64,000 nucleotides of DNA from an uncultured Bacteroidota bacterium (GCA_937871435.1 CALMQM010000123.1:2607-66606), one strand, 5' to 3'. Counted from the stretch's first letter, positions 1 through 64,000 are shown. Translations and numbers: made by a program. The notes: generated by a model from the sequence alone, not told the origin.

Positions 1-2869
1 CAGTCGCACCCATTTCAAGCCCTAATTTTTGACGATCCATTGCAGACATGATATGAATCGGAATGTGTTTTATTTTTTCGTTTTCACGAATTTTTTTCAA
101 CACCGACCAACCGTCCATTCCGGGAAGCTGCATATCCATGATAATCGCTGTCGGATTCATCTCTTCGGCCAGACGTAGTCCAACATCTCCTTGTGTGGCA
201 ACAACAGCTTTGTAATTTTTTTCATGCGCCATATCCAACAGAACACGGGCAAATTGCACATCATCTTCAACAATGAGCAACACCGGCTCAGAACCATCAA
301 GACAATCTCTATCGTCTTCAATAGAAGAAACTAAGTCAACAGAACTTGTTTGAATGGTTTCTGTCCGCATATTCAGTGGAAATCCCGAATGTGTAGTATC
401 GTTGGATACAGAATTTGTTTCCTGTGTAGTATCGGGGATTACAATTTTTGTATCAAGGGGCAGATACATAGAAAATGTACTTCCTTTACCCTGTTCCGAA
501 ACCAATTGCATTTCTCCACCAAGCATTGCAACCAACATTTTACTGATAGATAATCCAAGGCCTGTTCCGCCAAACTTCCTGTTGGTTGAACCGTCCGCCT
601 GTTGAAATGCTTCAAAAATCAGCTGCTGTTTCTCTGCCGGAATTCCAATTCCGGTATCTGTTACAGAGAATTCAATAATGTGTTTACTATTGATCAGGTT
701 AGGATTAGTAAATCGTGTTGATCGATCAGGTTGTTTAATTCGCAAAGTAACTTTTCCTCCGTGCGAAGTAAATTTAAAGGCATTGGACAGAAGATTCTTA
801 ATAATTTGCTCAATACGTACCCGATCTGTAACAAAACGTTCCGGTAAATTCGAATGCTTTTCAATTTCAAATTCAATTCGTTTCTCTTTCGCGAGTTCAG
901 AGAAAAGAGAACGGATGTCATCTTTCACAGTATTCAACTCCACTTCTTCAAGGATGAGTTCCACCTTTCCTGCTTCAATTTTCGAGAGATCAAGAATGTC
1001 GTTAATCAGTACCAATAAATCTGTTCCTGACTTGTGAATTACGCGGGCATATTCAACCTGTTTATCATTAAGATTATTCGCTTTATTTTCAGATAACAAT
1101 TTGGCCAGAATCAGCACACTGTTGAGAGGGGTCCGCAATTCATGTGACATATTTGCAAGGAATTCGGATTTGTATTTGCTGTTCATCTCCAGTTCCTTTG
1201 CCTTCAAACTCAATGCCTCTTGTGCTTGCTCCAGGACTTCATTCTGATGCTCCAATTCACGTGTGTTTTGCTTCAACTCATGGTTGCTCTGTTTGAGTTC
1301 TTCTTCAGAAGCCTGCAGCAGTTTCGACTGGTTGGAAAGCTCTTCGTTGGTTTGGCGCAATTCTTCCTCCTGTGCTGAAAGTCGTTCTGCCAGCTTTTTC
1401 GTTTCATCCAATAATCTTCTGGTTAGAGTATTGGCTTTAACAGAAGCAACTGTTGACGCGATAGTCTCTCCGATGTTTTCAATAAAGTCCTGCTTGTGCT
1501 TTTCAAACTGATTGAATGAAGCCAATTCGATTGCGCCATACACAATACCATGGTGTTTCAATGGAATGATCACAACATGTGACGCCGGTGATTCACCCAA
1601 ACCGGAATTGATTGTTGCATATGCTGAAGGAGCATTCATCAGGTAAATCGGTGTGCCTTGTTTTACAGCCTGTCCTAAAAGCCCTTCTCCGATTTCAATT
1701 CTCTTCTTTGCTTTCGCTCTCTCATCCAGGGCGTAACTACCGTGCAACTCTATCCAGCTTCTGTTCTCGAACTCATTTGATTCAAGTAAATAAATAGCCC
1801 CATGGTATGCGGAGATATACTTCACCAACATGGAAATTATTTCATCGCTCAGCTTAGAAATATCATCGTTGTTTTCTCTCAATACACCATTGATCTGTTC
1901 AATACCGCTGGATATCCAGTTTCTGTGTTTGTTATCAATATCCGCCTGGTGCAGACTAGAACGCATTTGTACCAATGCGTTTCCCAACTCATCATTTGCG
2001 CCCAGTGGTTGAAATTCCACTTCAAAATTTCCATCACCGATATTGTGTGCAAATCTCGCCGTACGCTTAAGGCTCTGCATGAGTGTGCGCACAGCTTCCG
2101 TCATTTGACCTACTGCATTTTTCCTTGGTTCAAGATCCATTTCCGGGATTTCGCCTTTTCCCATCAACAGGATATAGTTTTTCAACTTCATGGTAGGAAC
2201 GATGATGTTGTTGGACATGTAGAATGCAGCCATCAACACAACAATGACAATCAGAATTGCGATTCCCAATACACTCCACATAAGTGCCCTGGAGGAAGCC
2301 CTCATCTGATTGTGTTCGAATTCAGCTTGCGCCTTCTTTTTCAGAATAACCTGATTGAGTTGCGTAATAATATTGGTAGAACCCGGAAGAATTTGATTTT
2401 CGATAATTTCTTCAGCAGAAAATTTCTTCATTGGATCCTCGTAGTCATCGAAATTTACCAATGAGCTCATAATCTGGCGTTGGTACACCATCATTTTTTC
2501 AAAATTCAGGAACACCTTCTGCATGCTGTCTGCATTCTCCTGATCATTCCAGAGGGTCATCATGGCCATGATGTTTCCTTTCAATTCAGGATATTCCACA
2601 GTTTGCAACTCCTTCAGTTTCTCTTTGTCTTCTTTATTTCCCTGGAGGTAGACCCAATTGGTGCTATACATCTTTGCCTTCGTTACCAACAAGTTCATGT
2701 TTTCCAATGACTGCAAAGAAGGAATTTCCACCGTCATGATTTTGGTGGTGACATCCTGATTTCTGGAAATATTCAATGAGCTGTAAATGGCGTTGAAAAC
2801 CGAAATGCCAATTACTGCCATGAATACAACATAAATTTCAAGATCAATTTTATAGTTTTTCGACTTCAT
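1..2869 (-). CDS. Hybrid sensor histidine kinase/response regulator, partial (C-terminus beyond window start). Domains: TM, HAMP, GAF, long coiled coil, HisKA, HATPase_c, REC.
   Basis: Reverse-strand translation from ATG at 2867-2869 gives MKSKNYKIDLEIYVVFMAVIG... with no stop to position 1, so the ORF track omits it. The H-box SHELRTPLNSV, HATPase G-boxes and a REC domain (LLIVEDD...IPIHIMSAMD) are visible. The plus-strand ORFs 678-2710 are antisense artefacts. Confidence 0.85.
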   Translation of the reverse strand, partial: MKSKNYKIDLEIYVVFMAVIGISVFNAIYSSLNISRNQDVTTKIMTVEIPSLQSLENMNLLVTKAKMYSTNWVYLQGNKEDKEKLKELQTVEYPELKGNIMAMMTLWNDQENADSMQKVFLNFEKMMVYQRQIMSSLVNFDDYEDPMKKFSAEEIIENQILPGSTNIITQLNQVILKKKAQAEFEHNQMRASSRALMWSVLGIAILIVIVVLMAAFYMSNNIIVPTMKLKNYILLMGKGEIPEMDLEPRKNAVGQMTEAVRTLMQSLKRTARFAHNIGDGNFEVEFQPLGANDELGNALVQMRSSLHQADIDNKHRNWISSGIEQINGVLRENNDDISKLSDEIISMLVKYISAYHGAIYLLESNEFENRSWIELHGSYALDERAKAKKRIEIGEGLLGQAVKQGTPIYLMNAPSAYATINSGLGESPASHVVIIPLKHHGIVYGAIELASFNQFEKHKQDFIENIGETIASTVASVKANTLTRRLLDETKKLAERLSAQEEELRQTNEELSNQSKLLQASEEELKQSNHELKQNTRELEHQNEVLEQAQEALSLKAKELEMNSKYKSEFLANMSHELRTPLNSVLILAKLLSENKANNLNDKQVEYARVIHKSGTDLLVLINDILDLSKIEAGKVELILEEVELNTVKDDIRSLFSELAKEKRIEFEIEKHSNLPERFVTDRVRIEQIIKNLLSNAFKFTSHGGKVTLRIKQPDRSTRFTNPNLINSKHIIEFSVTDTGIGIPAEKQQLIFEAFQQADGSTNRKFGGTGLGLSISKMLVAMLGGEMQLVSEQGKGSTFSMYLPLDTKIVIPDTTQETNSVSNDTTHSGFPLNMRTETIQTSSVDLVSSIEDDRDCLDGSEPVLLIVEDDVQFARVLLDMAHEKNYKAVVATQGDVGLRLAEEMNPTAIIMDMQLPGMDGWSVLKKIRENEKIKHIPIHIMSAMDRQKLGLEMGAT

Positions 2870-2886
2870 CGATGCGAACTTTCTTT

Positions 2887-3441
2887 TTATGGATTAACGA
2901 GAATCGCCAGGCTGCTTAGTTGCGAAGAAATTTTTATTCCTCCTGACTTTGCGGCGCTCAGATTAATTACGAAACGAATTTTATTTTCAACTTTTACCAA
3001 ATTAATCGCTGCCCATTTTTCAGAATGTTCAGATTCTTCAGAGACCAGCAGAACTCCTCTACCCTGATATTGTTTTGCCCACATTTCTCCGTGCGATTCC
3101 TCGCCCGCTGTCACAAATACAAGTTGGCAAGTAGGCGCGTTTTCAGGATTCAATTGAACCAGTTCAAGTTTTTTCCCTTCCTTCTTTTTCATTGCGATCA
3201 CTTTTTGTAATGCGTCGCTAACACTCGATTTTCCGACAATACCAATTTTAAAAACGGACGCTTCCTGTTCCTTTGGCCATTCCACATATTTGATAAAATT
3301 GAAAAGAAACATTGCTTTAATGTCGGCTTCATTAGATTGCGAATAAATTTTCCCGGTACCAATTAACAAAAACACAACAAGCACCAATCCCTTTCGGAAG
3401 GTGCTTTGAATGGTGTGTTTTATTTTCGGACGGATGCTCAT
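2887..3441 (-). CDS. YfiR/DUF4154 family periplasmic protein
   Basis: 184 aa with a signal peptide. Typical DUF4154 length. Sits between a TonB-dependent receptor and a hybrid kinase, a recurrent Bacteroidota arrangement. Confidence 0.6.
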   Translation of the reverse strand: MSIRPKIKHTIQSTFRKGLVLVVFLLIGTGKIYSQSNEADIKAMFLFNFIKYVEWPKEQEASVFKIGIVGKSSVSDALQKVIAMKKKEGKKLELVQLNPENAPTCQLVFVTAGEESHGEMWAKQYQGRGVLLVSEESEHSEKWAAINLVKVENKIRFVINLSAAKSGGIKISSQLSSLAILVNP

Positions 3442-3444
3442 TCT

Positions 3445-5439
3445 TTACTTATGGAAATCGAACCGATAGCACAAATTGAGTCTGTATTCCCTTGAAAGGC
3501 CCGGTAATGCAGCGTGATTATTATTATAGGGCTGTATGTAAACAACTTTTGAATCAAGCACATTGATACAGCCCGCCTGTATAGTCAGCCCCCGGGTAAA
3601 AATCTGCTCGAAATTGAACATCATATCGATGTAGGCTGCGGGATCATATTTCACAATAACATCTTTTCCCGAATTCGCATCAACATAATAATCGTATCGT
3701 GTATCCAGCAGAGTCATGGAGGGAGAGAGATTCACTTTCCTGCTAATTTTCAGATTTGAACTTAGCGTCACTTTGTTGTTTGGAAAAGCGACTACTTTTC
3801 CTTTCTTGCCGGGAATACTATAGGTTTCGTTTGTTTTTTTACCCCGGGTTGTGAAGAATGAATAATTCAGGTTCATGTACCCTAATAGTGTCTTGACGCG
3901 GTATTCCAGTTCAAATCCTCTGCTACCGGTAACTCCATCATTTTTGTATGCATCCAAATTGTCGGCGGTGTAATAAAAAATAATAGGATCGTGGGTGGTG
4001 ATATCAAAAATATTTGCGGTGAGATACGTATTGGCTCCAAACTCATATCCTGTTTCCAGCTCGGTAACTGTTGTACGTTCAGGCTTTATTCCATTCCCAG
4101 AATTGATATTCTCAATGGATGGTGAACGGAAAGCAGAGCTGTACAAAAGTTTCACGTGCCACTTATTAAATACTCTGGTAAGCCCAATTCTTGGCACAAA
4201 AGCGTCCGCGAATCTGTCGTTAGCATTGTATCGCGCACCAAATGTGATGTTGGCGAACTTGCTACGAATCAACATTTGCGCATAGGCTGCCATGTTATTT
4301 ATTTCAAATTTTCCCGAACCATTTGAAAAATATGTTGAGTCAATTCGTTGAGCTGCTATTTGTTTGCATCCTTCAAGTCCTGTTATCAGGTTGATAGAAG
4401 AATTGATATCGTAATTCGCTTTAAGCTGGCCGAGAAAACTTTCAACCGATACACTATATGGGACGAATTCATCATTCAAGGATGTGCCTTCGAAATTCCA
4501 TGGTGTTTGATGCTTGAATTTCACCGTCGGAAGAAGAGAGAGTTTATCATTTACGTGCACTTCATATTCACCCAAAATATGATAGCTATTGAAATCTGTA
4601 GGGTATGTTTTAGATAAGGCATTTTCATAGCCATCTCTTTGTAATAAATGATATTGGTCGGCAAATGCTGACAGCTTTAGTTTTTTCCAGGTTAAATCGA
4701 GTTTCCCTTGTGCTGTATGTATTCCGGAATTTTCGGCCATGTTATAAGAAGAGCCATAATTGTCAGTGAAATCATTCTGGCTACGATTTGACTCATTGAA
4801 AAACGCCGACAAATTCACTTGTACATCCCCGAGAGGTTTCATGGCAGAAAGAGAGATATTCCGTGTTGCATATTGACGGCTCATCTGACTGTAGGTTGTA
4901 TTCACAGCAATTCCGTTCCCGGATCCGGCTTGTTTGGTGATGATATTGATTACTGCATATTCTGCGTTACCGCCATATACCGCCGATCCCGGCCCACGAA
5001 TAATTTCAATCTGTTTGATTGAGCTGACAGAATAATGGGCACCCAATACAATTGCGGAGAAAAGGTCTTCGTTTAATTCATGACCATCCAGGAGCATCAG
5101 AACTTTTCCTTCGTGTGCCCAATTTCCTCTCACACCCAAACCTATAACTCCTTCAACATCTACTCCAAAATCAAAACCGGGTACTTTTTGTAAAAGCTCA
5201 ATTAAATCAGTTGCTCCTGATTTACGAATTTCGTCTTCCGTAATAAACGTGATAATACCGGGGGATTCTCGTGGTGTAAGTGCTTTGGATGTGGCAACCG
5301 TAACCTCCACTTTCATCAGATCTTCGAGAGACATGTCATAAAAAGAGACACTATCTCTTGCAGTCGAAGAAATCTGTTGTGCAGGAGCAGATCCTGTACT
5401 TAGAATAAGTAAGAAGAAAAGTAAAAGATAAACACGCAT
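3445..5439 (-). CDS. TonB-dependent outer-membrane receptor
   Basis: Signal peptide MRVYLLLFFLLILSTGSAPAQQ from an internal Met. The ORF track starts it at 5514. Plug-domain motif DLIELLQKVPGF. About 660 aa, beta-barrel-like with a C-terminal aromatic residue. Confidence 0.85.
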   Translation of the reverse strand: MRVYLLLFFLLILSTGSAPAQQISSTARDSVSFYDMSLEDLMKVEVTVATSKALTPRESPGIITFITEDEIRKSGATDLIELLQKVPGFDFGVDVEGVIGLGVRGNWAHEGKVLMLLDGHELNEDLFSAIVLGAHYSVSSIKQIEIIRGPGSAVYGGNAEYAVINIITKQAGSGNGIAVNTTYSQMSRQYATRNISLSAMKPLGDVQVNLSAFFNESNRSQNDFTDNYGSSYNMAENSGIHTAQGKLDLTWKKLKLSAFADQYHLLQRDGYENALSKTYPTDFNSYHILGEYEVHVNDKLSLLPTVKFKHQTPWNFEGTSLNDEFVPYSVSVESFLGQLKANYDINSSINLITGLEGCKQIAAQRIDSTYFSNGSGKFEINNMAAYAQMLIRSKFANITFGARYNANDRFADAFVPRIGLTRVFNKWHVKLLYSSAFRSPSIENINSGNGIKPERTTVTELETGYEFGANTYLTANIFDITTHDPIIFYYTADNLDAYKNDGVTGSRGFELEYRVKTLLGYMNLNYSFFTTRGKKTNETYSIPGKKGKVVAFPNNKVTLSSNLKISRKVNLSPSMTLLDTRYDYYVDANSGKDVIVKYDPAAYIDMMFNFEQIFTRGLTIQAGCINVLDSKVVYIQPYNNNHAALPGLSREYRLNLCYRFDFHK

Positions 5440-37581: not shown

Positions 37582-39123
37582 TTGATTTCAATGAACGTGT
37601 TTTCAAAAAAATATTTCATCACAACACTTTTGTTATCCCTTTGCATTTGTGTTTTTTCTCAAGATGCTCCAAAGACTAACCCAGACGGGTTCAATACATT
37701 TTATTATCCGGGCGGAAAAAAATCCAGTGAAGGTTTTCTGAAAAACGGAAAACCGGACGGGTATTGGAAAAGTTATTATGAGAGTGGCAGAATAAAATCA
37801 GAAGGAAATCGTGTTAATTTCAAACTTGACAGTTTGTGGAAATTTTACAATGATTCTGCGGTTCTGACTGCTGAATACTATTACAAAGACGGATTGAAAA
37901 ACGGAATTCAGAAAACCTATTATGATAACGGAGTTTTGCAGTCGGAAGAAACTGATTCGATGAGTATTCGTCAGGGGATTTCAAAGTATTATAATGAAAA
38001 GGGAATTCTGATTAAAACTATTCCGTATATCAATGGTGTTGAAAACGGAATGGCAAGAGAGTACCGTGAAGACGGCACATTGATCACAGTGACTCGTTAC
38101 AGAAATGGATTTTTTCAAAAAGAAGAAAAAATAAACCGGATAGATAAGTTGGGATTAAAGCAAGGTGTCTATAAAGATTTCTATGATACGGATCAGATTC
38201 GTTCTGAAGGAATGTATAAAGACGATAAGAAGGATGGTATTTTCAAAGAGTATTCATTGGATGGAAGGGTGATTAAAAAAGAGGAATACATTATGGATGT
38301 ACTTCAGGTGAAAGAGGAGGCGGAAAAGGACAAGTTTGAAGTAAAGAGAAATTATTATGCAACAGGGGCTACGAAAATAGTCGGGACATTTAAAAAAGGA
38401 ATTCCGGAAGGAGTGTTCAGACAATATGATGAAAACGGAAACATTGACAGCGCGAAAGTATTTGCAGGGGGACGACTGCTGAGACAAGGAAAGATGGATA
38501 ATCAGGGGAGAGAACAAGGAGAGTGGAAAGAATTTTATGAAAGCGGGAAAATTCGTTCCATAGGCATGTATGTGGACGGAAAAAGAGAAGGTGTTTGGAA
38601 ATTTTCTTTTGAAAATGATTCCATGGAGCAGATTGGTGCTTATGTAAAAGGAAAACCGAACGGGGATTGGAAATGGTATTATCCGAATGGACAATTGCGG
38701 AGAGAGGAAACGTATGCGAACGGAAAAGAAAACGGAATGATGCGCGAGTTTGATGATGATGGCACATTGTTAACCGAAGGAAATTATGTAGACGGGAAAC
38801 AGGAAGGTGATTGGAAATACAGTATTGGTGAATATGTCGCGGAGGGAAAGTTTGTTGAAGGAAAGGAAGATGGTTTGTGGAAGCAATATTACAGAGACGG
38901 CAAACTTGCTTTTGAAGGAGAGTACCTCGAAGGACTTGAAACAGGAAAACACACATATTACTGGCCGAATGGTCGCCTGCACGAGGTCCGCAATTACCGA
39001 CTTGGCCTACCGGATGGTGAATGGTTTTTATACGATGAGGGAGGAGCAGAAGTGTTGAAACTGACATACCGCAGTGGTGATGAAAAGAAGATAGACAACA
39101 CGGATGCACCGGAAGGGAATTGA
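37582..39123 (+). CDS. MORN-variant/YwqK-type repeat protein, secreted
   Basis: Signal peptide, then about 18 repeats of G-x-W-K-x-Y-Y-x-x-G-x-(L/I) (GYWKSYYESGRI, GDWKWYYPNGQL and others). Confidence 0.7.
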   Translation: MISMNVFSKKYFITTLLLSLCICVFSQDAPKTNPDGFNTFYYPGGKKSSEGFLKNGKPDGYWKSYYESGRIKSEGNRVNFKLDSLWKFYNDSAVLTAEYYYKDGLKNGIQKTYYDNGVLQSEETDSMSIRQGISKYYNEKGILIKTIPYINGVENGMAREYREDGTLITVTRYRNGFFQKEEKINRIDKLGLKQGVYKDFYDTDQIRSEGMYKDDKKDGIFKEYSLDGRVIKKEEYIMDVLQVKEEAEKDKFEVKRNYYATGATKIVGTFKKGIPEGVFRQYDENGNIDSAKVFAGGRLLRQGKMDNQGREQGEWKEFYESGKIRSIGMYVDGKREGVWKFSFENDSMEQIGAYVKGKPNGDWKWYYPNGQLRREETYANGKENGMMREFDDDGTLLTEGNYVDGKQEGDWKYSIGEYVAEGKFVEGKEDGLWKQYYRDGKLAFEGEYLEGLETGKHTYYWPNGRLHEVRNYRLGLPDGEWFLYDEGGAEVLKLTYRSGDEKKIDNTDAPEGN

Positions 39124-55462: not shown

Positions 55463-56083
55463 GGGAATAAAAGTCTTCCTTTTTATTTTTTAGAAAATCC
55501 AAAACAGCACCCTGAAAGTAGAGAGAGCTTTTGCATCTGCATAAGATTTCAAATTCCCGATAGAATCACGTTTTTCATTAAATCATTCAGGTTTTAACAT
55601 GGCGCATAGTAATAGTACTGGCTTAATTGACGATTTCATTAATTATCCAGGGAGGGGGTAGAAAAACCGGAAGAGGGGGCAGACGCGGAATTATTTTTAT
55701 TTAATGAGAGAAATGTATTTATTTTTTGAAATGAAATTATAATTTTGGTTTTGGAATAGAATGAGAAAAATTATTTTTTACTGTTTAATTGATTAGAGTG
55801 CCTGTTATAAATAATTATCTGGTTTAAATTTTTGCGACCCGATACCAGAATAATTATTCAAGTAAATCAATATACTTTCTGTTTTATACTATTTTATTTT
55901 ATAAACATACAGAAAGAGTAATAGCGGGAAGTCACATCGGTATGATAAAGCATCAACACAAAAACCGGATTGTGAATTAAGGAGAGCGAGTTCAGACCTG
56001 CATGCGAATGAAATCATTAAGTGATTTCGCAATTAAAATTTTTTTTGAAAATATTTCTTCAGTCAATATAAAAATGTTGTCCT
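55463..56083. promoter_or_regulatory. 620-bp extremely AT-rich non-coding spacer upstream of a low-GC operon
   Basis: No ORF. Poly-A/T tracts. GC content falls sharply compared with the flanking ppk gene. Confidence 0.5.
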
Positions 56084-57100
56084 ATGAACCTGCCTGTTGT
56101 CGTTGACGTGGCCATCTCCATGGTTTTTGTGTATCTCTTATTCAGCATTCTTGTTTCTGCAATCAGTGAGTTGTTGCAACACTGGACAAGAGAGCGTGGG
56201 TATTTTTTGTACGATTCTTTGTACAAAATATTTGCTGACCGCCACAATTTGAATTATGCACTTTTATTGTATGGACACCCTATCATTGATTCAAAAAAGC
56301 AAGGAGGGAAAAAATATCCGTCATACATTCAATCGAAAGCTTTCGCAGAAGCATTAATTGATCTGATTGCACAGCCTGCTCTTGCCGGAGCGATACAACA
56401 ACAAAACGGACAGCTTTTTATAGCTCAACTTGCAAATGCTGATATCAGGAAACCAACAAATGTCCACGCCGATTTTCTGGAGGCGGTGAAAGGAATGAAC
56501 AATTCCAATTTACGCATTCTTCTGGCGAGTCTTGCAGCACAATCTGAGTCTTATGAAAAGTTAAAGGAGAATATCATTCTGTGGTATGATGATTATATGG
56601 ATACGGTTTCAGGATGGTATAAGCGGAAGATTATTCGCAGAACACAATACATCGGTTTGTTGGTGGCATTTATTTTTCATGTTGACACAATTTTTCTCGT
56701 GGATAAATTCTGGTCGAATGAAATTCTGCGTTCTTCTGTAGTTCTCGCTGCGGAAAAAGAAGTTTCGAATCCAGAGTTAATGAGAGAGTATTCTGTACTC
56801 AGAGATTCAGCAATCGATAAGGAGAATAACGCTTTCAAAAACATAAATGAAATAAAAAAAATATCTGAACAACTGGCGCTGCCTATCGGAATGAAACAAT
56901 ATGAAATACGATTAGCAAACAAGAGTACATGTAATAAGCTGCTAGAACTATTTCTAATAATGATAGGTTGTACACTCACAGGATTCGCACTTGCCTATGG
57001 AGCAGATTATTGGTTCAATATACTTGGTAAATTAATCAATGTCCGATCGGCCGTAAAACCACCATCCGGAGATCCGTCAAAAAAGGAGGATAAAAAATGA
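56084..57100 (+). CDS. Hypothetical 3-TM membrane protein
   Basis: N-terminal, central and C-terminal TM helices. Stop overlaps the next start (ATGA), suggesting translational coupling. Confidence 0.6.
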   Translation: MNLPVVVDVAISMVFVYLLFSILVSAISELLQHWTRERGYFLYDSLYKIFADRHNLNYALLLYGHPIIDSKKQGGKKYPSYIQSKAFAEALIDLIAQPALAGAIQQQNGQLFIAQLANADIRKPTNVHADFLEAVKGMNNSNLRILLASLAAQSESYEKLKENIILWYDDYMDTVSGWYKRKIIRRTQYIGLLVAFIFHVDTIFLVDKFWSNEILRSSVVLAAEKEVSNPELMREYSVLRDSAIDKENNAFKNINEIKKISEQLALPIGMKQYEIRLANKSTCNKLLELFLIMIGCTLTGFALAYGADYWFNILGKLINVRSAVKPPSGDPSKKEDKK

Positions 57101-58227
57101 ACTTATACAATTGCCACACTCATATTTTTTCAACACAATATGTTCCGGACAATGTTGTAGGACAACAGGATCATCTTGGAGGTTTGACTAAATTTTTAAG
57201 CATACGCAAAATTTCACGATGGAATCCAGCGGTGTTGAATATCGCAGGAAAACTATTTGGAGGCTGGCCGGGAGCAAACAGAGTTATCACATTTGCAAAA
57301 ATTGGACTTGCGGCCACGCAGGAGAAAATATTTGATCAACTGGTTGACTATTACACTCCCTGGGGAGATGTGCGTTTTGTTGTTCTCACGATGGACATGG
57401 AAATGATGCAGGGCGGACCGGTGCCGAGTAATTTGCTCACACAACTTGATGAAATCATCCGATTGCGAAGTAAAGGGAATAACGCGGACAGGATTTTACC
57501 TTTTATCTGTATTGACCCGAGAAATCCCCGTTATCTGAATGGCGATTCCATTGTTGATTTTGTGAAACCTTATTTCGAGAAATATGGATTCATCGGAATT
57601 AAGTTGTATCCGGCACTCGGATATTTTCCACAGGACGCGAAAATGTTTCCATTGTATCGGTGGTGTGCCAACAATTGTGTACCGATTATCACACACTGTA
57701 TTACCGGCGTGATTCATTATCGTGGAGATGTTTCCGCGCTACCTCCTGTAAATAATCCCGGCAATGTTCCTTATGTCGCGGATAACAACAGCAGTGATCC
57801 GAAAATTTATCAGAGAAACTTTACTCAGCCCAGAAACTACTCAGCCATTTTGAGCGAGATCCCCAATCTGAAAATATGCCTCGCGCACTATGGTGATGAC
57901 AAAGAGTTGATAGCAGGAAAAGGCTGGCCACAAGAAATCAACGCTTTGATTCAAAAGTATCCGAATGTTTATACGGATATGTCTTACATTATCGAAAACA
58001 CGGGGACTTTTCCGGCAATTCAAAAATCGCTTTCAACACCGGTGTTGGAAGATCGTGTATTATTTGGAACAGACTATTATGTGGTGAGTAAAGCAAAACT
58101 GGAAAATGAACTTGCAAACGATTTTCGCAGCTACATGATCCAGCAGAATTTACATACGCTGTTTTTGAAATCTGCCACAACAAATGCACAGAAATTTTTG
58201 AGCTCAAAATTTTATACGGCACCATAA
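57097..58227 (+). CDS. Amidohydrolase-2-like (TIM-barrel) metal-dependent hydrolase, cytoplasmic
   Basis: N-terminal CHTHIF (HxH), later ITHCI, LAHYG and FGTDYY Asp. No signal peptide. Confidence 0.65.
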   Translation: MNLYNCHTHIFSTQYVPDNVVGQQDHLGGLTKFLSIRKISRWNPAVLNIAGKLFGGWPGANRVITFAKIGLAATQEKIFDQLVDYYTPWGDVRFVVLTMDMEMMQGGPVPSNLLTQLDEIIRLRSKGNNADRILPFICIDPRNPRYLNGDSIVDFVKPYFEKYGFIGIKLYPALGYFPQDAKMFPLYRWCANNCVPIITHCITGVIHYRGDVSALPPVNNPGNVPYVADNNSSDPKIYQRNFTQPRNYSAILSEIPNLKICLAHYGDDKELIAGKGWPQEINALIQKYPNVYTDMSYIIENTGTFPAIQKSLSTPVLEDRVLFGTDYYVVSKAKLENELANDFRSYMIQQNLHTLFLKSATTNAQKFLSSKFYTAP

Positions 58228-58249
58228 ATCGATTATTAAAACCTGAGAC

Positions 58250-59779
58250 ATGTTTGCAGACCTTCATGTACATCCCGGATTAAAACCGTTTCATAGTGGC
58301 CACCCACTTCCGGACGCGAATAAAAATATATATGCTGATCTCGACAATCCGGGAGTAAAAGATTTTTTGCGATGGCTTGCAAATGTTGCTCATATGGGGG
58401 TGATTTTTTATTCTCAATCAAATCTTGAACGGATGCGATTTGGAAAAGTGCGTGTGGCGTGCGTTTCGCTCTATCCACTCGAAAAAGGTTTTGCAAAAGT
58501 GGATTTGCAAGAAGCTCCATTTTTACAAAGAGAGATTTTGCGTTTGTTTGGGTATGATGATATTCATTTGGTAGAAGCGGTTGCAGGAGTGCAAAAAGAC
58601 AAGGTAGCATTTATCAGAAATACAGAAGACGATTATTTCCCTTTTCTGGAGCAGGAGTATCAATACATGCTTGCTCAGACAAAAACACCGGAAGCGAACA
58701 CCAAAGCGAAATTTGTAAGAGATTTTACAGAATTAAAAACGGTGCTGGCCGAACCGGATACAATCGCATTGATCAATACGATTGAAGGAGCCCATGTGTT
58801 TGGAGCCTACTCTCAAGATGATTCTGTGATTACACCTGAACGGTTAAAAACGTATTCAGAGCGAATAGCACATGTGAAAAATGTCTGGGAATTCCCGCCA
58901 TTCTTTATTTCTCTTCAACATCATTTTTGGAATCACCTCGGAGGACATGCCAGAAGTCTTTCCGGATTACTCAGTGATGTCGTGAATCAAAATGATCACA
59001 TGAATGAAGGGTTGAATGAATTGGGAAAACATGTGATTCGGGAATTGCTGAGTAATCAGAATGGAAAAAGAATTCTGGTTGATATCAAACATATGTCGGC
59101 CCGCTCGAGGAAAGACTTCTACGGAATGTTGAAGACAGAATTTTCCGGAGAGAAAATTCCGATTATCTGCAGTCATACCGGAATTATGGATCAACGGGAA
59201 ACGTTGAACAGAATCATTGCGGAACCTCAGGATACAGAAGAAGCTAACGCGAATAATTATCTGCACAATTGGTCCATTAATCTGTGCAAGGAGGATATAT
59301 TGAATATCTATAGGAGCGGAGGCTTGATTGGAATTCAACTGGATGAGAAGAGACTGGGAGGAGGATTGGCGCAAACGAAACTTACTCTTGCAAAAAAGAA
59401 GCAGCCGCAACCGTCGAATGACCCGGAAAGACCATGGTTGGTCCGGGAAGAATACATGAAACTTCTGTGGGGCAATATTTTTACCCTCGTACGCTATATC
59501 AGGCAACCTGATGCCTGGGATATCATCACAATTGGTTCTGATATGGACGGACTGATTAATCCTATGGACATTTATCCTGACAGCACATACATGGATGAAC
59601 TTGCAGAGGACATGCGTGATTTTCTGCTCAGTAAAACGCCTATTCCTGAATTGAATTTAAGACCGGAATTTATCAAGAATTATATGTATGGCTACACACC
59701 GGAGGAATTGGTAAATAAAATTATGTTTTCAAATATGGAAGATTTTCTGGAAAAGAATTTTCAGGACCATTTAGCCTAA
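58250..59779 (+). CDS. Amidohydrolase-superfamily metal-dependent hydrolase, cytoplasmic
   Basis: DLHVHPG (HxH), IEGAHVFG, QHHFWNH, DIKHM, CSHTG and IGSDMDG. The pattern matches metal ligands of a binuclear TIM-barrel hydrolase. Confidence 0.6.
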   Translation: MFADLHVHPGLKPFHSGHPLPDANKNIYADLDNPGVKDFLRWLANVAHMGVIFYSQSNLERMRFGKVRVACVSLYPLEKGFAKVDLQEAPFLQREILRLFGYDDIHLVEAVAGVQKDKVAFIRNTEDDYFPFLEQEYQYMLAQTKTPEANTKAKFVRDFTELKTVLAEPDTIALINTIEGAHVFGAYSQDDSVITPERLKTYSERIAHVKNVWEFPPFFISLQHHFWNHLGGHARSLSGLLSDVVNQNDHMNEGLNELGKHVIRELLSNQNGKRILVDIKHMSARSRKDFYGMLKTEFSGEKIPIICSHTGIMDQRETLNRIIAEPQDTEEANANNYLHNWSINLCKEDILNIYRSGGLIGIQLDEKRLGGGLAQTKLTLAKKKQPQPSNDPERPWLVREEYMKLLWGNIFTLVRYIRQPDAWDIITIGSDMDGLINPMDIYPDSTYMDELAEDMRDFLLSKTPIPELNLRPEFIKNYMYGYTPEELVNKIMFSNMEDFLEKNFQDHLA

Positions 59780-59795
59780 ATTAAAGAATGAGCGT

Positions 59796-62700
59796 ATGAA
59801 AAATATTTTCAAGCTGTCGAATAAGAGAAGATCACACGCGGAGATATGGGTTGTATTGTTTTTAATCCTTGTATTGGTAGGGTATTATTATATGCTTTAT
59901 ATCCCCAGTCAGCAAAACAGGTTGGTGGAACAAAAATTCAGATCTCTAAGCAGGATTGATGAAAATATTCACAACAAAATAGAGTCCTATCAGAAATACA
60001 TTCGTTCCTATGTATTTGACTCAGACCTCTGGAATTCTCAGAAAATCCGGGAGAAAATAGAAGGGGGGAATTATTATGACGAAGACAAGAAAATACTAAT
60101 AAAAAGACGAACAGATAATTCGAAAATAATTCCACAGGATTCTGCGAAAACGATCCTGGATATTCAAAACAATCAGTTGGAGCAGATCGTTTATACCTGC
60201 TCTGAAAATGGCGCCCTGGAGTTTTCTCAGCGAAATAATTTCAAAGAATTTATCCGCCCTCTACTGACCAATGATCTTTTTGATAACTATTTGATATTGT
60301 CGGATAGCGGAGTGTTGTTTGAGTCTTTTCCTTCCGGAATGTCATTTAAAAAACTGGACTCGGTATTCGATTCAAGATCCACCATTCATTACTGCAAGCT
60401 AAGAGACATTGAAATCGGCGGAGTTAGTTACAAAATGTTTCTACAGCCATTGGGAAATTTATCCGGAAGTGAAATTGTCATCGTTGGATTATTGACTACG
60501 GGTAATTTTAATGCCAATGTCAGACAACTTCCGGAGGCGTTGATTACACCAATTCTTTACATTCTGCTTTCTATTCTTTTGCTCTTCCCACTATTGAAAC
60601 TGATGCTGATGGGTAAAGCGGAGCGCATGCGCTTTGTTGATTTGTTGTTTTCTTATATCTCGCTAATGATGTTGTGTGGAACGACCATTCTGATTCTTTG
60701 CAGATATTCCCCGCAGGTTGATAATGAAACGAACAAACATCTGGAAACGATAAGCAATCAAATCGAGTCGAACTTCAACACAGAAGTACACTCCGCCTTC
60801 AGACACTTATCAAATCTTGATAGTATAGTTAACGACACGAAAAATGGTTTGACCACTCAGAAAAAATCTTTTGCTGAGCAACAGTGGGGATTGGTTTCTA
60901 TCAATGACAAGGACAAAATTAATTTTGACAAGAAAAAAAATACCGATAAAAATAATTCCACAGAGAAAACTGATAAGACAGAAAATCAAAATCAATTTTT
61001 ACAAAATGTTTTCAATTCTATCAAAGACAATTACATCCGCATTTCTCAGGTATATTGGATTGATCCGAATGCAAAGATCAGAATTAATTGGACTGAAGCG
61101 GCTACCAACCCTCCATTTGGAATGGTGGATGATAGAAAATACTTTTCTGCAATTAAAGAGCAGCAGTTCTACTATTTAGACAATGATATCACACAACCCT
61201 ACTATCTGCAGCCTGTAATTTCCTGGTCTGACAAGCAATATAAGCTTGTGATATCAAAGCCATCCATTCATAAAGACTTTGCTGCGACGGGTATGTCATG
61301 CTATTTCAACTCTCTGATACGGACAACGCTGCCACCCGGAATTAGTTTTGCCCTGCTTGATGAAGGTGGAGAAGTACTTGCTCATTCGGATTCACTGAAA
61401 AACCTGAGGGAGAATATGTATAATGAAAGTGACGCCGCATCAGTCATCAGTGGAATTCAATTGACGGAAGTCCCACGTCATTTCAATACGAAATATTCAG
61501 GCGGTAATTATTCTGCTTATGCAAAAAAAATTAAAGGATTGCCATATGTACTTGTAGTATTTGAAGACAGAAGTTATGAAAGCAGCCGGTATGTATCCGC
61601 GTTGTTTTATGCGTTGATTTTATTTGGCAGTTTGCTTGTTGTGATGCTGGGAGAAATCCTGTTGTTGTCGTTCAATGGCTATAACAGATCGGTACTAAAG
61701 AAAAACGATTTCAATTTTAACTGGATTTTTCCACGGACGGGACAGCGCCAGAAATATTGGATGATTACTGCTACCAATGGCCTGTTGATTATAATCTTGC
61801 CGCTTTATTTCACCCATGTTCTCAATGGCAACGTAGAGTTAATCCTGAAATCATTAATCACAACGTTTTTGCTTTCGACCTTGTTTTACACTTTAGTGAG
61901 CTGTGAAAAGAACAAACTAAAATTTGAATTTAACAGAAAGAAAGGACTTTTGTTCTGGTCGTTTATGCTCATCCTGTTTTTTATGTTGTTTCATTCAGCG
62001 ATTCAACCCTGCACTTCACGGGCGTTGTTGAGGACTCTTGGGCCGGCAGGAATAACACTTGGAATTTGCATTCTGAATTTTTCTCTGCTGAAAAACGGAA
62101 TCACATACAGAGGAAACAGTTTGCTTCCAGATGCAGGAAGTGCAAGAAGGAGCTATTCGGCGGTCGTATTTTCCAGAATTCTCCTGACATGCGGAATGCC
62201 GGTTATGTATTTTTATTGCAGTGGATACAATCTGATTTTGAGAAATGAAGCGAAAGAAAAACTATTTGTTTTTGCGCAACAGGTAAATCGATACAACAAG
62301 AGTAATCTCGATCCGGTATTATATCCCGCAAACTGTTCGATGCCAATCCACCAGTTTCTCGGTATTTATTTTGATCAATTCTGGATTTCTGATACATGTC
62401 GCTACGAATCAAAACCAGGAACGGATGAGTTTCGTGTGGACATGGAGCAATTGCAACTTCACACCATGCGAAAGGCGATGGCCATTAGTAAAACCCGCAA
62501 ACATCCATGGTTTTATTCTTATGGACAACGGGCAGACACAGGGTCCTATTCATTTGTAGAAACAAAAAATGGAATCATGCTAAACATGAGGCCTACATTC
62601 AATTCGATTTGTGATACACCGGGCAGCCAATCTATATTCTATACAGGGAAAGATCTATTTGCGTCGATGAGCTTGTTTGGGACGAATTCAAACAAATTAA

Positions 62701-64000
62701 ATGAGGTGATCCTGATTGTTGTATTAATTGTGTTACTGCTTATTTTATTTTTTCTGATTGGATATACGACTGAGAAAATATTTGGAAAATATTCTGTTCC
62801 GGAAATGCCCTCTCGTTTTTTACGCAATCAAATTCTGGAAACAGAAATGCGAAAGCTGTTGTTTATTCAGGGTCCGCCTGGATCAGGGAAAACGCAATTT
62901 GTGAGAGAGTATTTGCGCTACCGTACAAAAGAAAAAATAACTGATCAGCATGGTACGGTACAGGAAGTTACTGTAACAAAGAAGTACCAATTTGCAAAGT
63001 CTGAAAAAGACATCAATGAAACAACAAATGCAGTGATCATTGATTTACTGGAAATTCCGGACTCATCCGAATCGGATAATATTCCACTCTGGAGATACAA
63101 AATCACAAAGATTCTTGAAAACAAGAATTTACAATGCATTCTCATCAACCATTTTGAATACAACATTCGGGACCTTACAACCAACAGAATAAAATTGAAT
63201 TTCCTTGAAAAATTACTGATTGATCATGGCCAACGCAAACTGGTGATCGTATCAACGATAGACCTCGGAGAATTTATTTATTCGATGGAGAACAATCTGG
63301 TTCTGGATGAAAGCCAACGTGCTGAAATATTTGAGGATGTTCACCGCTGGAGAGTTTTACTGGGAAACTTTGCCAATATTTATTTACCTCTCGATACTCA
63401 TTTTGAACACGCTGCAATAAATCTTGATAGCCCAATAGAAGACGTATTAAAAAACGAATGCGGCTCAATAAAATTTCTTCAACCGTTCAGGGAGGAGATG
63501 GAGAAAACGATCCAACTACAGAGAGTAAGGAAAGAAGAGCCCATTTCCGCGATAGAATTAATTTTTCAAATTCAGGGTTTTGCTACACATTTCTACCAGT
63601 ACCTGTGGGCCTCACTGACACGAGAAGAACAAATTATTCTGATAGATATGGCCGAAGACGGAATATTGAACACCAGCAATGCCGGTTGTCTGAAATTATT
63701 GATTGATAAAGGGATTATTAGTATGGTTGATGGTAAAATGCAATTGTTCAATCTGAGCTTTCGTAACTTTTTGCTTACTGTAATTACGACGGAGGATAAA
63801 CAAAAACTGGTAACCGGGATAGACGATAACAGTTACTGGAATAATTATAAGTATCCGATCGGAATAGTTGCCGCCTCCCTTGTGTGGCTGTTGTTATACA
63901 GTGATCCGGAGAAGTTCGGGAATATTTTACCCACACTCACCGCTCTGGGAACCGGCGTGCCGATTATTTTCCGTTTGTTGACAATGTTTAAAACGGGCGA
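59796..64000 (+). CDS. Giant polytopic membrane protein (>1401 aa, 3' partial): periplasmic Cache-like segments, at least 9 TMs, cytoplasmic P-loop NTPase, then a helical C-terminal module (possibly a winged helix)
   Basis: A single uninterrupted frame from ATG 59796 to the window end. It is not in the ORF track because it has no stop, and no frame-0 plus-strand ORFs are listed. Walker A IQGPPGSGKTQF at 62865 (in frame, about aa 1024). Walker B-like AVIIDLLE and KLVIVSTID. Multiple hydrophobic segments. The periplasmic stretch VYWIDPNAKIRINW…YYLQPVISWSDKQYKLVISKP looks Cache-like. Confidence 0.75.
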   Translation, partial: MKNIFKLSNKRRSHAEIWVVLFLILVLVGYYYMLYIPSQQNRLVEQKFRSLSRIDENIHNKIESYQKYIRSYVFDSDLWNSQKIREKIEGGNYYDEDKKILIKRRTDNSKIIPQDSAKTILDIQNNQLEQIVYTCSENGALEFSQRNNFKEFIRPLLTNDLFDNYLILSDSGVLFESFPSGMSFKKLDSVFDSRSTIHYCKLRDIEIGGVSYKMFLQPLGNLSGSEIVIVGLLTTGNFNANVRQLPEALITPILYILLSILLLFPLLKLMLMGKAERMRFVDLLFSYISLMMLCGTTILILCRYSPQVDNETNKHLETISNQIESNFNTEVHSAFRHLSNLDSIVNDTKNGLTTQKKSFAEQQWGLVSINDKDKINFDKKKNTDKNNSTEKTDKTENQNQFLQNVFNSIKDNYIRISQVYWIDPNAKIRINWTEAATNPPFGMVDDRKYFSAIKEQQFYYLDNDITQPYYLQPVISWSDKQYKLVISKPSIHKDFAATGMSCYFNSLIRTTLPPGISFALLDEGGEVLAHSDSLKNLRENMYNESDAASVISGIQLTEVPRHFNTKYSGGNYSAYAKKIKGLPYVLVVFEDRSYESSRYVSALFYALILFGSLLVVMLGEILLLSFNGYNRSVLKKNDFNFNWIFPRTGQRQKYWMITATNGLLIIILPLYFTHVLNGNVELILKSLITTFLLSTLFYTLVSCEKNKLKFEFNRKKGLLFWSFMLILFFMLFHSAIQPCTSRALLRTLGPAGITLGICILNFSLLKNGITYRGNSLLPDAGSARRSYSAVVFSRILLTCGMPVMYFYCSGYNLILRNEAKEKLFVFAQQVNRYNKSNLDPVLYPANCSMPIHQFLGIYFDQFWISDTCRYESKPGTDEFRVDMEQLQLHTMRKAMAISKTRKHPWFYSYGQRADTGSYSFVETKNGIMLNMRPTFNSICDTPGSQSIFYTGKDLFASMSLFGTNSNKLNEVILIVVLIVLLLILFFLIGYTTEKIFGKYSVPEMPSRFLRNQILETEMRKLLFIQGPPGSGKTQFVREYLRYRTKEKITDQHGTVQEVTVTKKYQFAKSEKDINETTNAVIIDLLEIPDSSESDNIPLWRYKITKILENKNLQCILINHFEYNIRDLTTNRIKLNFLEKLLIDHGQRKLVIVSTIDLGEFIYSMENNLVLDESQRAEIFEDVHRWRVLLGNFANIYLPLDTHFEHAAINLDSPIEDVLKNECGSIKFLQPFREEMEKTIQLQRVRKEEPISAIELIFQIQGFATHFYQYLWASLTREEQIILIDMAEDGILNTSNAGCLKLLIDKGIISMVDGKMQLFNLSFRNFLLTVITTEDKQKLVTGIDDNSYWNNYKYPIGIVAASLVWLLLYSDPEKFGNILPTLTALGTGVPIIFRLLTMFKTG

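What the first reader, a model, noticed from the sequence alone, without database searches (positions are those of the whole stretch)
56084..64000. Low-GC 4-gene operon: membrane protein, two amidohydrolase-fold hydrolases, and a giant transmembrane Cache/P-loop NTPase. Candidate undescribed sensor-effector system.
The four plus-strand genes are tightly packed: a 4-nt ATGA overlap, then 22-nt and 16-nt gaps. They follow a 620-bp AT-rich spacer and have visibly lower GC than the rest of the window, which suggests horizontal acquisition. The architecture is unusual. A large NTPase with periplasmic sensor-like domains and about 9 or more TMs is co-encoded with two cytoplasmic binuclear-metal TIM-barrel hydrolases. 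The amidohydrolase superfamily includes nucleotide and nucleobase deaminases. A large ATPase paired with an amidohydrolase-superfamily deaminase is the logic of the RADAR anti-phage system, but here the NTPase is membrane-embedded and sensor-fused, which I do not recognise as a described system. It could be a defence module or a signalling module that converts an extracellular cue into small-molecule hydrolysis.
Basis: partly seen in the sequence, partly recalled or inferred. Interest (0 to 1): 0.8.

Follow-up and report, generated by a model that had tools for sequence, protein, structure and literature searches.

The report
Membrane protein, leaderless hydrolases, sensor NTPase
A real four-gene cluster in an uncultured Bacteroidia bacterium joins an uncharacterised three-helix membrane protein, which in many bacteria sits beside signal-less cell-envelope-degrading enzymes, to two metal hydrolases and a giant membrane sensor ATPase; it is not a RADAR-like phage defence, and its function is still inferred.

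Summary
The four genes and their spacing are exactly as described. The low GC is marginal (0.393 against 0.419) and gives no real evidence of horizontal transfer.

- **g1:** a 3-TM protein with no Pfam family and no fold relative.
- **g2:** an Amidohydro_2 enzyme with a binuclear-type motif set.
- **g3:** a divergent M19 (renal dipeptidase-like) zinc hydrolase.
- **g4:** a 1404-aa, roughly 12-TM protein with Cache-like outer domains and a cytoplasmic AAA+/STAND-type NTPase plus winged helix.

No RADAR or other PADLOC defence model matches.

**Comparative genomics.** g1-g2 is a conserved pair. More broadly, g1 relatives lie beside signal-less peptidoglycan amidases and lysozymes, PLC-like phosphoesterases, Tle1-like lipases and sedolisins. 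The g3 and g4 families are large and almost always solitary. All four genes recur, in a different order, in a Cyclobacteriaceae MAG.

**Best reading (about 0.4).** g1 gives leaderless hydrolases access to, or control at, the envelope. This is holin-like logic without homology to holins. g2 and g3 are its cargo, and g4 is the sensing switch.

**Rivals.** An envelope-peptide salvage operon, a defence system, or partly chance adjacency.

The locus is interesting and apparently undescribed, but its function is unproven.

The parts
55463..56083 (.). AT-rich intergenic spacer between ppk1 and g1; the presumed promoter region of the cluster
   Evidence: 621 bp, GC 0.304. No Rfam family at a meaningful score. 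The sigma-70 scan is not above the shuffled background.
56084..57100 (+). g1: 338-aa membrane protein with 3 TM helices (aa 9-27, 188-206, 286-304). Family motifs are MDRVSGWYKR before TM2 and GAPFWF..L.K..N.R after TM3. It is the conserved partner of leaderless hydrolases.
57097..58227 (+). g2: 376-aa leaderless Amidohydro_2 TIM-barrel hydrolase. Its start overlaps the g1 stop by 4 nt.
   Evidence: PF04909 E 2.7e-15, 57 bits against a cut-off of 26. Family-invariant residues H7-x-H9, K169, H200, H264 and D326 give a binuclear-type ligand pattern. No hydrophobic N-terminus. Lies directly after g1 in 7 metagenome loci and in L085.
58250..59779 (+). g3: 509-aa leaderless, divergent M19 (renal dipeptidase-like) zinc hydrolase
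   Evidence: PF01244 E 4.8e-9, 36 bits against a cut-off of 26. A family profile hits PDB renal-dipeptidase-family proteins at E 5e-4, with the D-x-[KS]-H-[ML]-S, S-H and G-S-D-F-D-G motifs aligned. Invariant or near-invariant H6, H8, E179, H224/H225, H281, H309, D431 and D433. 391 homologues with E <= 0.001, almost all solitary.
59796..64000 (+). g4: giant membrane sensor NTPase. It is 1404 aa in full; the window ends 3 codons before the stop.
   Evidence: Translation. About 12 hydrophobic helices. Family size.
59901..60539 (+). g4 extracytoplasmic domain 1 (aa 36-248), between TM1 and TM2
   Evidence: Topology inferred from the hydrophobic segments and flanking positive charges. Conserved in 48 family members sampled.
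60699..61610 (+). g4 extracytoplasmic domain 2 (aa 302-605), Cache-like
   Evidence: Relatives give weak dCache_1 hits, and precomputed PF02743 is recorded on the L180 and L009 genes. The family profile's best PDB hit is 'Cache domain protein' 9hvj at E 0.015.
61611..62231 (+). g4 block of about six TM helices (aa 606-812)
   Evidence: Hydropathy and sequence.
62232..62705 (+). g4 region aa 813-970, inferred to be a third extracytoplasmic segment. A single TM helix separates it from the cytoplasmic NTPase.
   Evidence: Inference from TM parity.
62763..63815 (+). g4 cytoplasmic AAA+/STAND-type NTPase, helical domain and winged helix (aa 990-1340). Walker A GPPGSGKT lies at 62871-62894, the Walker B-like LINHFEY at 63141-63161, and the most conserved family motif LT.EE..L.D.AEDG..N at 63615-63671.
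63816..63998 (+). g4 two C-terminal TM helices (aa 1351-1368 and 1377-1395). They anchor the NTPase module at its far end.

Best explanation
The locus is a composite envelope-hydrolase module under a membrane sensor.

Its core is the translationally coupled pair g1-g2: a 3-TM protein of an uncharacterised family plus a signal-less binuclear-type amidohydrolase. Across many phyla, g1-family genes sit directly beside signal-less enzymes that attack the cell envelope. These include Amidase_2, GH25 and GH19-like peptidoglycan hydrolases with PG-binding domains, PLC-like phosphoesterases, Tle1-like lipases and sedolisin proteases.

I therefore infer that g1 is the membrane partner that lets such leaderless enzymes reach the envelope, or be held and released at it. 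The logic is holin-like, but g1 is not homologous to any holin and is not a phage gene. In this genome the cargo would be g2 and the M19-like zinc hydrolase g3. A Tat-exported g3 paralogue encoded just downstream argues that this enzyme type works outside the cytoplasm.

g4 has Cache-like outer domains, about 12 TM helices, and a cytoplasmic AAA+/STAND NTPase with a winged helix. It is inferred to be a ligand-gated nucleotide switch that controls when the module acts.

Shown: gene order and spacing, domain identities, conserved catalytic residues, the g1-g2 pair, the g1-hydrolase association, and a second four-gene locus.

Inferred: export or release by g1, envelope or peptide substrates for g2 and g3, and the regulatory role of g4.
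For: - **Pair conservation.** g1-g2 adjacency with overlap or short gaps in L097, L098, L100, L112, L122, L129, L153 and L085.
- **g1-hydrolase association.** Of 80 metagenome loci fetched with g1, HMMs of the neighbour families hit Amidohydro_2 in 7, PLC-like in 8 (4 of these divergent but adjacent), sedolisin in 6, PG amidase/lysozyme in 4, Tle1-like lipase in 3, and the eCIS tail-fibre domain DUF6519 in 3. The last five of these families (all but Amidohydro_2) hit nothing in 1.39 Mb of control loci; the Amidohydro_2 model hit one control locus, L085, which itself carries g1.
- **No signal peptides.** These enzymes lack them.
- **Isolate genomes show the same pairing.** On a Hymenobacter canadensis plasmid, g1 is followed after 1 nt by an amidase and then an S8 peptidase. 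In Caballeronia sp. M1242, g1 is followed after 1 nt by an amidase and then a PG-binding GH19-like protein.
- **Multi-hydrolase batteries.** L100 has g1-g2-Metallophos-sedolisin; L112 has sedolisin-g1-g2.
- **The full set recurs.** L085 has g3-g1-g2-g4 with 13-, 16- and 33-nt gaps. L153 has g3-g1-g2 before the contig ends.
- **Pattern of presence.** g3 and g4 were present together in both evaluable loci that had either, and absent from the six other g1-g2 loci with flanks.
- **g5.** It carries a Tat-type signal and belongs to the g3 family.
- **g4 fold and topology**.
Against: - No experiment or structural complex links g1 to any hydrolase. The association is by neighbourhood only.
- g1 (300-560 aa) is unlike known holins. 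It hits no Pfam or PHROGs holin family, has no fold relative, and is nearly absent from viral contigs (2 of 2.9 million).
- The closest relatives of g3 (55-57% identity) and nearly all of its family are solitary genes, as expected for ordinary cytoplasmic enzymes.
- All seven g4 relatives whose context was examined are solitary among housekeeping genes.
- Window g4 is much closer to solitary members (E about 1e-50) than to the L085 copy (E about 1e-12).
- Only two loci show g4 beside g1-g3.
- The control for neighbour enrichment is not taxon-matched.
- Many g4 relatives have a degenerate Walker A, so NTP hydrolysis may not be general in the family.
Confidence: 0.4

Rival explanations
1. This is an ordinary envelope-peptide or amide salvage operon. 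g5 (periplasmic) and g3 (cytoplasmic) M19-type dipeptidases, together with the g2 amidohydrolase, would degrade peptides or peptidoglycan-derived L-X-D-X fragments. g1 would be an accessory membrane or uptake protein. g4 would sense the substrate and adjust expression or activity.
For: - M19 and Amidohydro_2 are metabolic enzyme families.
- Bacterial M19 enzymes are known from the literature (my own knowledge: Sco3058) to cleave L-X-D-X dipeptides.
- Most g3 relatives are solitary genes in housekeeping contexts.
- The flanking genes here are housekeeping: ppk1, His_Phos_1, an ECF sigma factor.
- Composition is native-like.
- Cache domains typically bind small metabolites.
Against: g1 relatives pair with lysozymes, PG amidases, lipases, PLC-like enzymes and proteases in unrelated phyla. 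This does not fit a substrate-specific permease. g1 has only 3 TM helices and no transporter fold. No transporter, substrate-binding protein or downstream catabolic enzyme lies in the cluster.
Confidence: 0.25
2. This is an anti-phage or conflict system. g4 would act as a STAND-like sensor that activates hydrolase effectors, with g1 as a membrane effector or anchor, leading to cell death or growth arrest.
For: - The g4 NTPase fold resembles STAND/NLR and AAA+ initiator proteins.
- Some g1 neighbours are classic conflict domains, each seen once: TIR_2, caspase, KAP NTPase and eCIS_core. L112 has a MinD-like P-loop plus TPR protein. DUF6519 is an eCIS tail-fibre marker (PMC12923769).
- The Hymenobacter locus also carries a non-specific endonuclease.
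Against: - No PADLOC model matches any of the four proteins beyond P-loop noise, and there is no RdrA or RdrB.
- No deaminase-type domain is present.
- g4 relatives sit alone among housekeeping genes such as recA and prfC, not in defence islands.
- No mobile-element or defence genes flank the locus, and composition is native-like.
- Extracytoplasmic Cache-type sensing is atypical for phage sensors, which detect intracellular phage components.
Confidence: 0.1
3. Only g1-g2 is a functional unit. g3 and g4 would be independent genes that happen to lie downstream. g4 would be a general membrane signalling protein with unlinked targets, and g3 a housekeeping dipeptidase.
For: Both families are overwhelmingly solitary. 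Window g4 and L085 g4 are not close orthologues. Only two four-gene loci are known.
Against: The gaps are 22 and 16 nt here, and 13, 16 and 33 nt in L085, on one strand with no terminator-like site between the genes. Two distant genomes with different gene order both place g3 and g4 against g1-g2. With a handful of g4 paralogues per genome, two such adjacencies among about 8 evaluable g1-g2 loci would arise by chance with a probability of order 1e-3 or less. This is my own estimate, not a formal test.
Confidence: 0.15

Closest known systems
Holin-endolysin cassettes and holin-dependent (type 10) secretion
   Same: A membrane protein is encoded next to signal-less peptidoglycan hydrolases of endolysin architecture (Amidase_2 or GH19-like plus PG_binding_1) that must cross the inner membrane. 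Genes are tightly coupled, and the C-terminus after the last TM helix is charged.
   Different: g1 is 300-560 aa with large helical soluble parts. It matches no holin family in Pfam or PHROGs, has no fold relative, and is almost absent from phage contigs. Its partners also include lipases, PLC-like enzymes, sedolisins and amidohydrolases. In this window the partners are Amidohydro_2 and M19 enzymes, not recognised lysins, and a giant sensor NTPase is attached.
RADAR (RdrA AAA+ ATPase plus RdrB adenosine deaminase)
   Same: A large P-loop ATPase is encoded beside an amidohydrolase-superfamily enzyme.
   Different: No sequence match to RdrA or RdrB models. The hydrolases are Amidohydro_2 and M19, not ADA-like deaminases. 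The NTPase is membrane-embedded with outer sensor domains, and its family is normally solitary.
STAND / NLR-like and AAA+ initiator-clade NTPases (NB-ARC, CED-4, DnaA/DnaC/IstB, Orc/Cdc6)
   Different: The module is inserted between TM helices of a roughly 12-TM protein that has two or three extracytoplasmic domains. Pfam scores are all below threshold. Walker A is degenerate in many relatives. There are no repeat-type sensor arms (TPR, LRR, WD40).
Transmembrane P-loop NTPases of the KAP and YobI/Tmn type
   Same: A P-loop NTPase combined with TM helices in one polypeptide; Tmn is a membrane-associated defence NTPase (PMC13001434).
   Different: No KAP_NTPase or Tmn model matches g4. The TM helices flank the NTPase rather than interrupt it. 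g4 also carries large Cache-like outer domains.
Renal dipeptidase family M19 (for example Sco3058, human DPEP1) and Amidohydro_2 enzymes
   Same: TIM-barrel metal hydrolases with conserved ligand motifs. g3 keeps the EGx, D-x-x-H, S-H and G-x-D-x-DG motifs. g2 keeps H-x-H, K, H, H and D.
   Different: g3 is about 150 aa longer, has H-x-H rather than H-x-D at the N-terminus, and only weakly matches solved M19 proteins (E 5e-4 with a profile). The g2 ligand set, with an invariant Lys, looks binuclear, unlike the typical mononuclear Amidohydro_2 decarboxylases and lactonases (my own knowledge). Substrates are unknown.

Membership tests
RADAR | RdrA-type AAA+ ATPase | tested here: not met
   The PADLOC scan of g4 gives only P-loop-level hits to MkoA and mad8, with no RdrA.
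RADAR | RdrB adenosine-deaminase-like enzyme | tested here: not met
   g2 and g3 hit Amidohydro_2 and Peptidase_M19 only. There is no deaminase family and no RdrB in PADLOC.
Holin-endolysin / type 10 secretion | Membrane protein belongs to a recognised holin family | tested here: not met
   g1 and three relatives have no holin hit in Pfam or PHROGs. No PDB or viral fold relative.
Holin-endolysin / type 10 secretion | Adjacent signal-less peptidoglycan hydrolase | tested here: inconclusive
   Met for g1 relatives (L144, L151, L152, L163, Hymenobacter, Caballeronia). In the window itself the neighbours are signal-less Amidohydro_2 and M19 enzymes of unknown substrate.
Holin-endolysin / type 10 secretion | Membrane protein needed for release of the enzyme | not testable with these tools
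   Needs genetics and fractionation.
STAND NTPases | NB-ARC/NACHT-type P-loop domain plus helical domain plus winged helix | tested here: inconclusive
   The fold matches NLRs and CED-4, but it matches the DnaA/DnaC/IstB AAA+ initiators equally well. Pfam NB-ARC scores 15.6 bits against a cut-off of 23.5.
KAP / YobI(Tmn) transmembrane NTPases | KAP or YobI P-loop domain with inserted TM helices | tested here: not met
   No KAP_NTPase or YobI hit in Pfam, and no Tmn hit in PADLOC.
Cache (dCache_1) sensors | Extracytoplasmic double PAS-like module between two TM helices | tested here: inconclusive
   Position between TM3 and TM4 is met. Sequence support is only weak: relatives at E 6e-4 to 9e-3, and the profile against PDB 9hvj at E 0.015. 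No structure was predicted for this domain.
Peptidase M19 | Pfam PF01244 above the gathering score, with metal-ligand motifs | tested here: met
   36.2 bits against a cut-off of 26. Motifs align with solved M19-family proteins. Invariant His, Glu and Asp columns. Dipeptidase activity itself was not tested.
Amidohydro_2 | Pfam PF04909 above the gathering score, with an H-x-H...H...D pattern | tested here: met
   57.3 bits against a cut-off of 26.4. Invariant H7, H9, K169, H200, H264 and D326.
Extracellular contractile injection system (eCIS) loci | Sheath, tube, baseplate or tail-fibre genes nearby | tested here: not met
   None in the window or its sister contigs. Only 3 of 80 g1 loci carry the tail-fibre domain DUF6519 and one carries eCIS_core.

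The most novel reading that the evidence does not exclude
The g1 family defines a widespread, non-phage and so far undescribed route by which bacteria export or unleash signal-less envelope-degrading enzymes: peptidoglycan hydrolases, lipases, PLC-like enzymes, sedolisins and amidohydrolases. In this Bacteroidia lineage that route has been placed under a new class of receptor, in which Cache-like outer domains drive an AAA+/STAND nucleotide switch embedded between TM helices.
Probability: 0.3. Interest if true: 0.8.

Novelty: new variant of a known kind. Interest (0 to 1): 0.6.

Why it matters
How leaderless lytic and lipolytic enzymes leave the bacterial cytoplasm outside phage lysis is poorly understood. 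A conserved 3-TM partner found from Bacteroidota to Proteobacteria, Acidobacteria-type soil contigs and cyanobacterial plasmids would give a testable candidate, and culturable strains (Hymenobacter canadensis, Caballeronia sp. M1242) carry it.

Separately, the g4 family has at least 1700 clusters at 50% identity and no Pfam model for its NTPase half. It combines extracellular Cache-type sensing with a STAND/AAA+-type switch, an output type not listed among the usual bacterial signal-transduction classes.

The finding also removes a tempting but unsupported 'RADAR-like defence' label.

Tried and rejected
- **RADAR or other known defence:** the PADLOC scan was negative.
- **Phage origin of g1:** PHROGs negative, only 2 hits in 2.9 million viral contigs, and no BFVD fold match.
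- **Horizontal transfer:** GC and tetranucleotide profiles are not distinctive.
- **Regulatory RNA or promoter in the spacer:** nothing above background.
- **General g3-g4 or g1-g4 linkage:** an HMM of the g4 family found a copy in only 1 of 160 g1 or g3 loci.
- **Word-index search for g4 relatives:** it found only 4, which was misleading. The exhaustive HMMER search found 1707.
- **Literature:** the Aravind-lab conflict-system papers and the 2026 STAND survey mention neither Cache, amidohydrolase, sedolisin nor a 3-TM partner. A search on holin and leaderless secretion found nothing relevant.

Full report
**1. Observation**

g1 is 56084-57100, g2 57097-58227 (ATGA overlap), g3 58250-59779 (22-nt gap), and g4 starts at 59796 (16-nt gap) and runs off the window. 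Identical genes on sister contigs of the same uncultured Bacteroidia bacterium show that g4 is 1404 aa, so only three codons are missing. They also show a fifth + strand gene starting 48 nt later.

Upstream lie ppk1 and a 621-bp spacer with GC 0.304. The low-GC claim is marginal. The four genes have GC 0.393 against 0.419 for the rest, g2 and g3 sit at the window mean, and the tetranucleotide distance is not an outlier. I see no real evidence of recent horizontal acquisition. The flanks are housekeeping genes.

**2. The proteins**

*g2* is an Amidohydro_2 enzyme (57 bits, cut-off 26). In seven relatives, H7-x-H9, K169, H200, H264 and D326 are invariant. This is the ligand set of binuclear amidohydrolases.

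*g3* passes the Peptidase_M19 threshold. A 26-sequence profile aligns its D-x-K-H-M-S, S-H and G-S-D-x-D-G motifs with solved renal-dipeptidase-family proteins at E 5e-4. Neither g2 nor g3 has an N-terminal hydrophobic segment.

*g5*, the partial fifth gene, has a twin-arginine-type leader followed by the DLHCHP start of the g3 family.

**3. Defence hypothesis**

PADLOC gives nothing beyond Walker-A-level hits. No deaminase-type domain is present. The RADAR analogy therefore fails on both defining proteins.

**4. Comparative genomics of g4**

The word-indexed search found only three distant relatives. An exhaustive HMMER search with aa 961-1401 found 1707 cluster representatives, 627 of them at E<=1e-10. 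Most are 1300-1500 aa with the module at the same C-terminal position.

Seven genomic contexts were examined: L007, L008, L009, L177, L180, L181 and L182. In all of them the gene stands alone among unrelated housekeeping genes such as recA, prfC and a lipoprotein gene.

In the family alignment the Walker A is often degenerate. The most conserved element is the winged-helix-like motif plus the terminal helices.

**5. Comparative genomics of g3**

The family has 391 homologues with E <= 0.001, mostly in Chitinophagales. Of 80 species-representative loci, 79 have no g1, g2 or g4 nearby. The closest relatives, at 55-57% identity, are also solitary.

The exception is L085, a Cyclobacteriaceae MAG. 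It carries g3-g1-g2-g4 on one strand with 13-, 16- and 33-nt gaps.

**6. Comparative genomics of g1, the informative gene**

Sixty-six homologues were found, all unannotated. A pattern scan returned more than 500 metagenome loci, of which 80 were kept.

Seven of these have a g2 homologue immediately downstream. One of the seven, L153, also has g3 upstream. In the others the pair stands among unrelated genes. g1-g2 is therefore a conserved two-gene module.

The other g1 loci recurrently carry adjacent enzymes of unrelated folds:

| Neighbour family | g1 loci (of 80) |
|---|---|
| PLC-like phosphoesterase | 8 (four divergently oriented but adjacent) |
| Amidohydro_2 (g2-like) | 7 |
| Sedolisin | 6 |
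| Amidase_2 / GH25 with PG-binding domains | 4 |
| Tle1-like lipase | 3 |
| eCIS tail-fibre domain DUF6519 | 3 |

Single cases of TIR, caspase, KAP NTPase, eCIS_core, GH108 and M15 also occur (DUF6519 identity from PMC12923769). HMMs of the five non-g2 families hit nothing in 1.39 Mb of control loci, although that control is not taxon-matched. The enzymes generally begin directly with their catalytic domain, with no signal peptide.

Annotated isolate plasmids confirm the pattern:

- Hymenobacter canadensis: g1, then after 1 nt an N-acetylmuramoyl-L-alanine amidase, then an S8 peptidase.
- Caballeronia sp. M1242: g1, then after 1 nt an amidase, then a PG-binding GH19-like protein. All are leaderless and have endolysin-like architecture.
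- Three alphaproteobacterial plasmids share a cluster that ends in a PAP2-type 'vanadium haloperoxidase' followed by g1.

Multi-hydrolase batteries also occur. L100 has g1-g2-Metallophos-sedolisin and L112 has sedolisin-g1-g2.

g1 is essentially absent from phage contigs.

**7. How real is the four-gene unit?**

Among g1-g2 loci with enough flank, g3 and g4 are either both present (the window and L085; L153 has g3 but ends before a g4 could be seen) or both absent (six loci).

Window g4 is far closer to solitary family members than to L085 g4. Window g3 is closer to solitary g3 genes than to L085 g3. The gene order also differs. The two clusters are therefore not simply one inherited block. 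Repeated juxtaposition argues for a functional link, but n=2.

**8. Interpretation**

Leaderless peptidoglycan hydrolases with PG-binding domains must cross the inner membrane to act, and the only conserved companion is g1. I therefore read g1 as the membrane component that gives signal-less envelope hydrolases access to, or regulated release at, the envelope. It is analogous to a holin but not homologous to one.

In the window, g2 and g3 would be the cargo or effectors. The Tat-exported paralogue g5 shows that this enzyme type is used outside the cytoplasm. g4 would supply extracellular sensing coupled to a nucleotide switch.

All functional steps are inferred. The substrates of g2 and g3 are unknown; peptidoglycan peptides are a guess based on the known L-X-D-X specificity of bacterial M19 enzymes (my own knowledge).

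The main rival is a mundane peptide or amide salvage operon. A defence role and partial chance adjacency rank lower.

**9. Novelty and score**

I found no description of the g1 family, of its pairing with leaderless hydrolases, or of the g4 architecture, either in the domain libraries or in the papers searched.

I file it as a new variant of a known kind, namely a membrane-gate plus leaderless-hydrolase module. I give about a 0.3 chance that it represents a distinct export or activation route coupled to a new receptor class. Interest 0.6.

Noticed in passing
L006 7202-7525 and L005 7563-7802 (same species; 48 nt beyond the end of g4, outside the window): A fifth + strand gene encodes a twin-arginine-type leader (MEDRREFLRKLAAITAFSAMV) followed by the DLHCHP start of the g3/M19-like family. 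It is a secreted paralogue of g3. Only 108 aa are available.
   Followed up: partly
L001-L004 (sister contigs of the window): Four of the six sister contigs fetched end inside g4, and the window itself stops 3 codons short of the g4 stop; the other two (L005, L006) break early in g5. Strain variation or a repeat downstream may be breaking the assemblies.
   Followed up: no
L180 11903-16089: A second uncharacterised gene of more than 1500 aa with no Pfam hit lies two genes downstream of a g4-family gene, separated from it by prfC. It may be a paralogue, which would suggest several copies of this family per Bacteroidota genome.
   Followed up: no
Alignment A7 (g4 family): Many g4 relatives have a degenerate Walker A (for example GAPNADK, SLPYSGL, GITDPEK), while the winged-helix-like motif and the terminal TM helices stay conserved. 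Part of the family may be NTPase-dead.
   Followed up: no
L187, L190, L191 (Agrobacterium, Rhizobium and Paracoccus plasmids): A conserved cluster of three hypothetical genes is followed by a 'vanadium-dependent haloperoxidase' (PAP2-type) and then a g1 homologue. It lies next to transposase or toxin-antitoxin genes.
   Followed up: no
L112 11886-13943: A 686-aa MinD/ParA-like P-loop (KGGAGRT) fused to TPR repeats lies three genes downstream of a sedolisin-g1-g2 cluster. This is another NTPase near a g1 module.
   Followed up: partly
L185 1-4998 (Hymenobacter canadensis plasmid): A DNA/RNA non-specific endonuclease and a 1204-aa hypothetical protein lie just upstream of the g1-amidase-S8 peptidase cluster. 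This looks like an effector-rich island.
   Followed up: no
window 37582-39123: A strong GC and AT skew at 38-39 kb is explained by a 513-aa repeat protein rich in G/K/E/Y, of the MORN/YwqK-like repeat type. The lower-GC stretch at 36-38 kb holds nadA. Both are ordinary.
   Followed up: partly
L009 127-3995: The g4-family gene appears split into two ORFs (127-3453 and 3414-3995). This is probably a frameshift or an assembly error.
   Followed up: no
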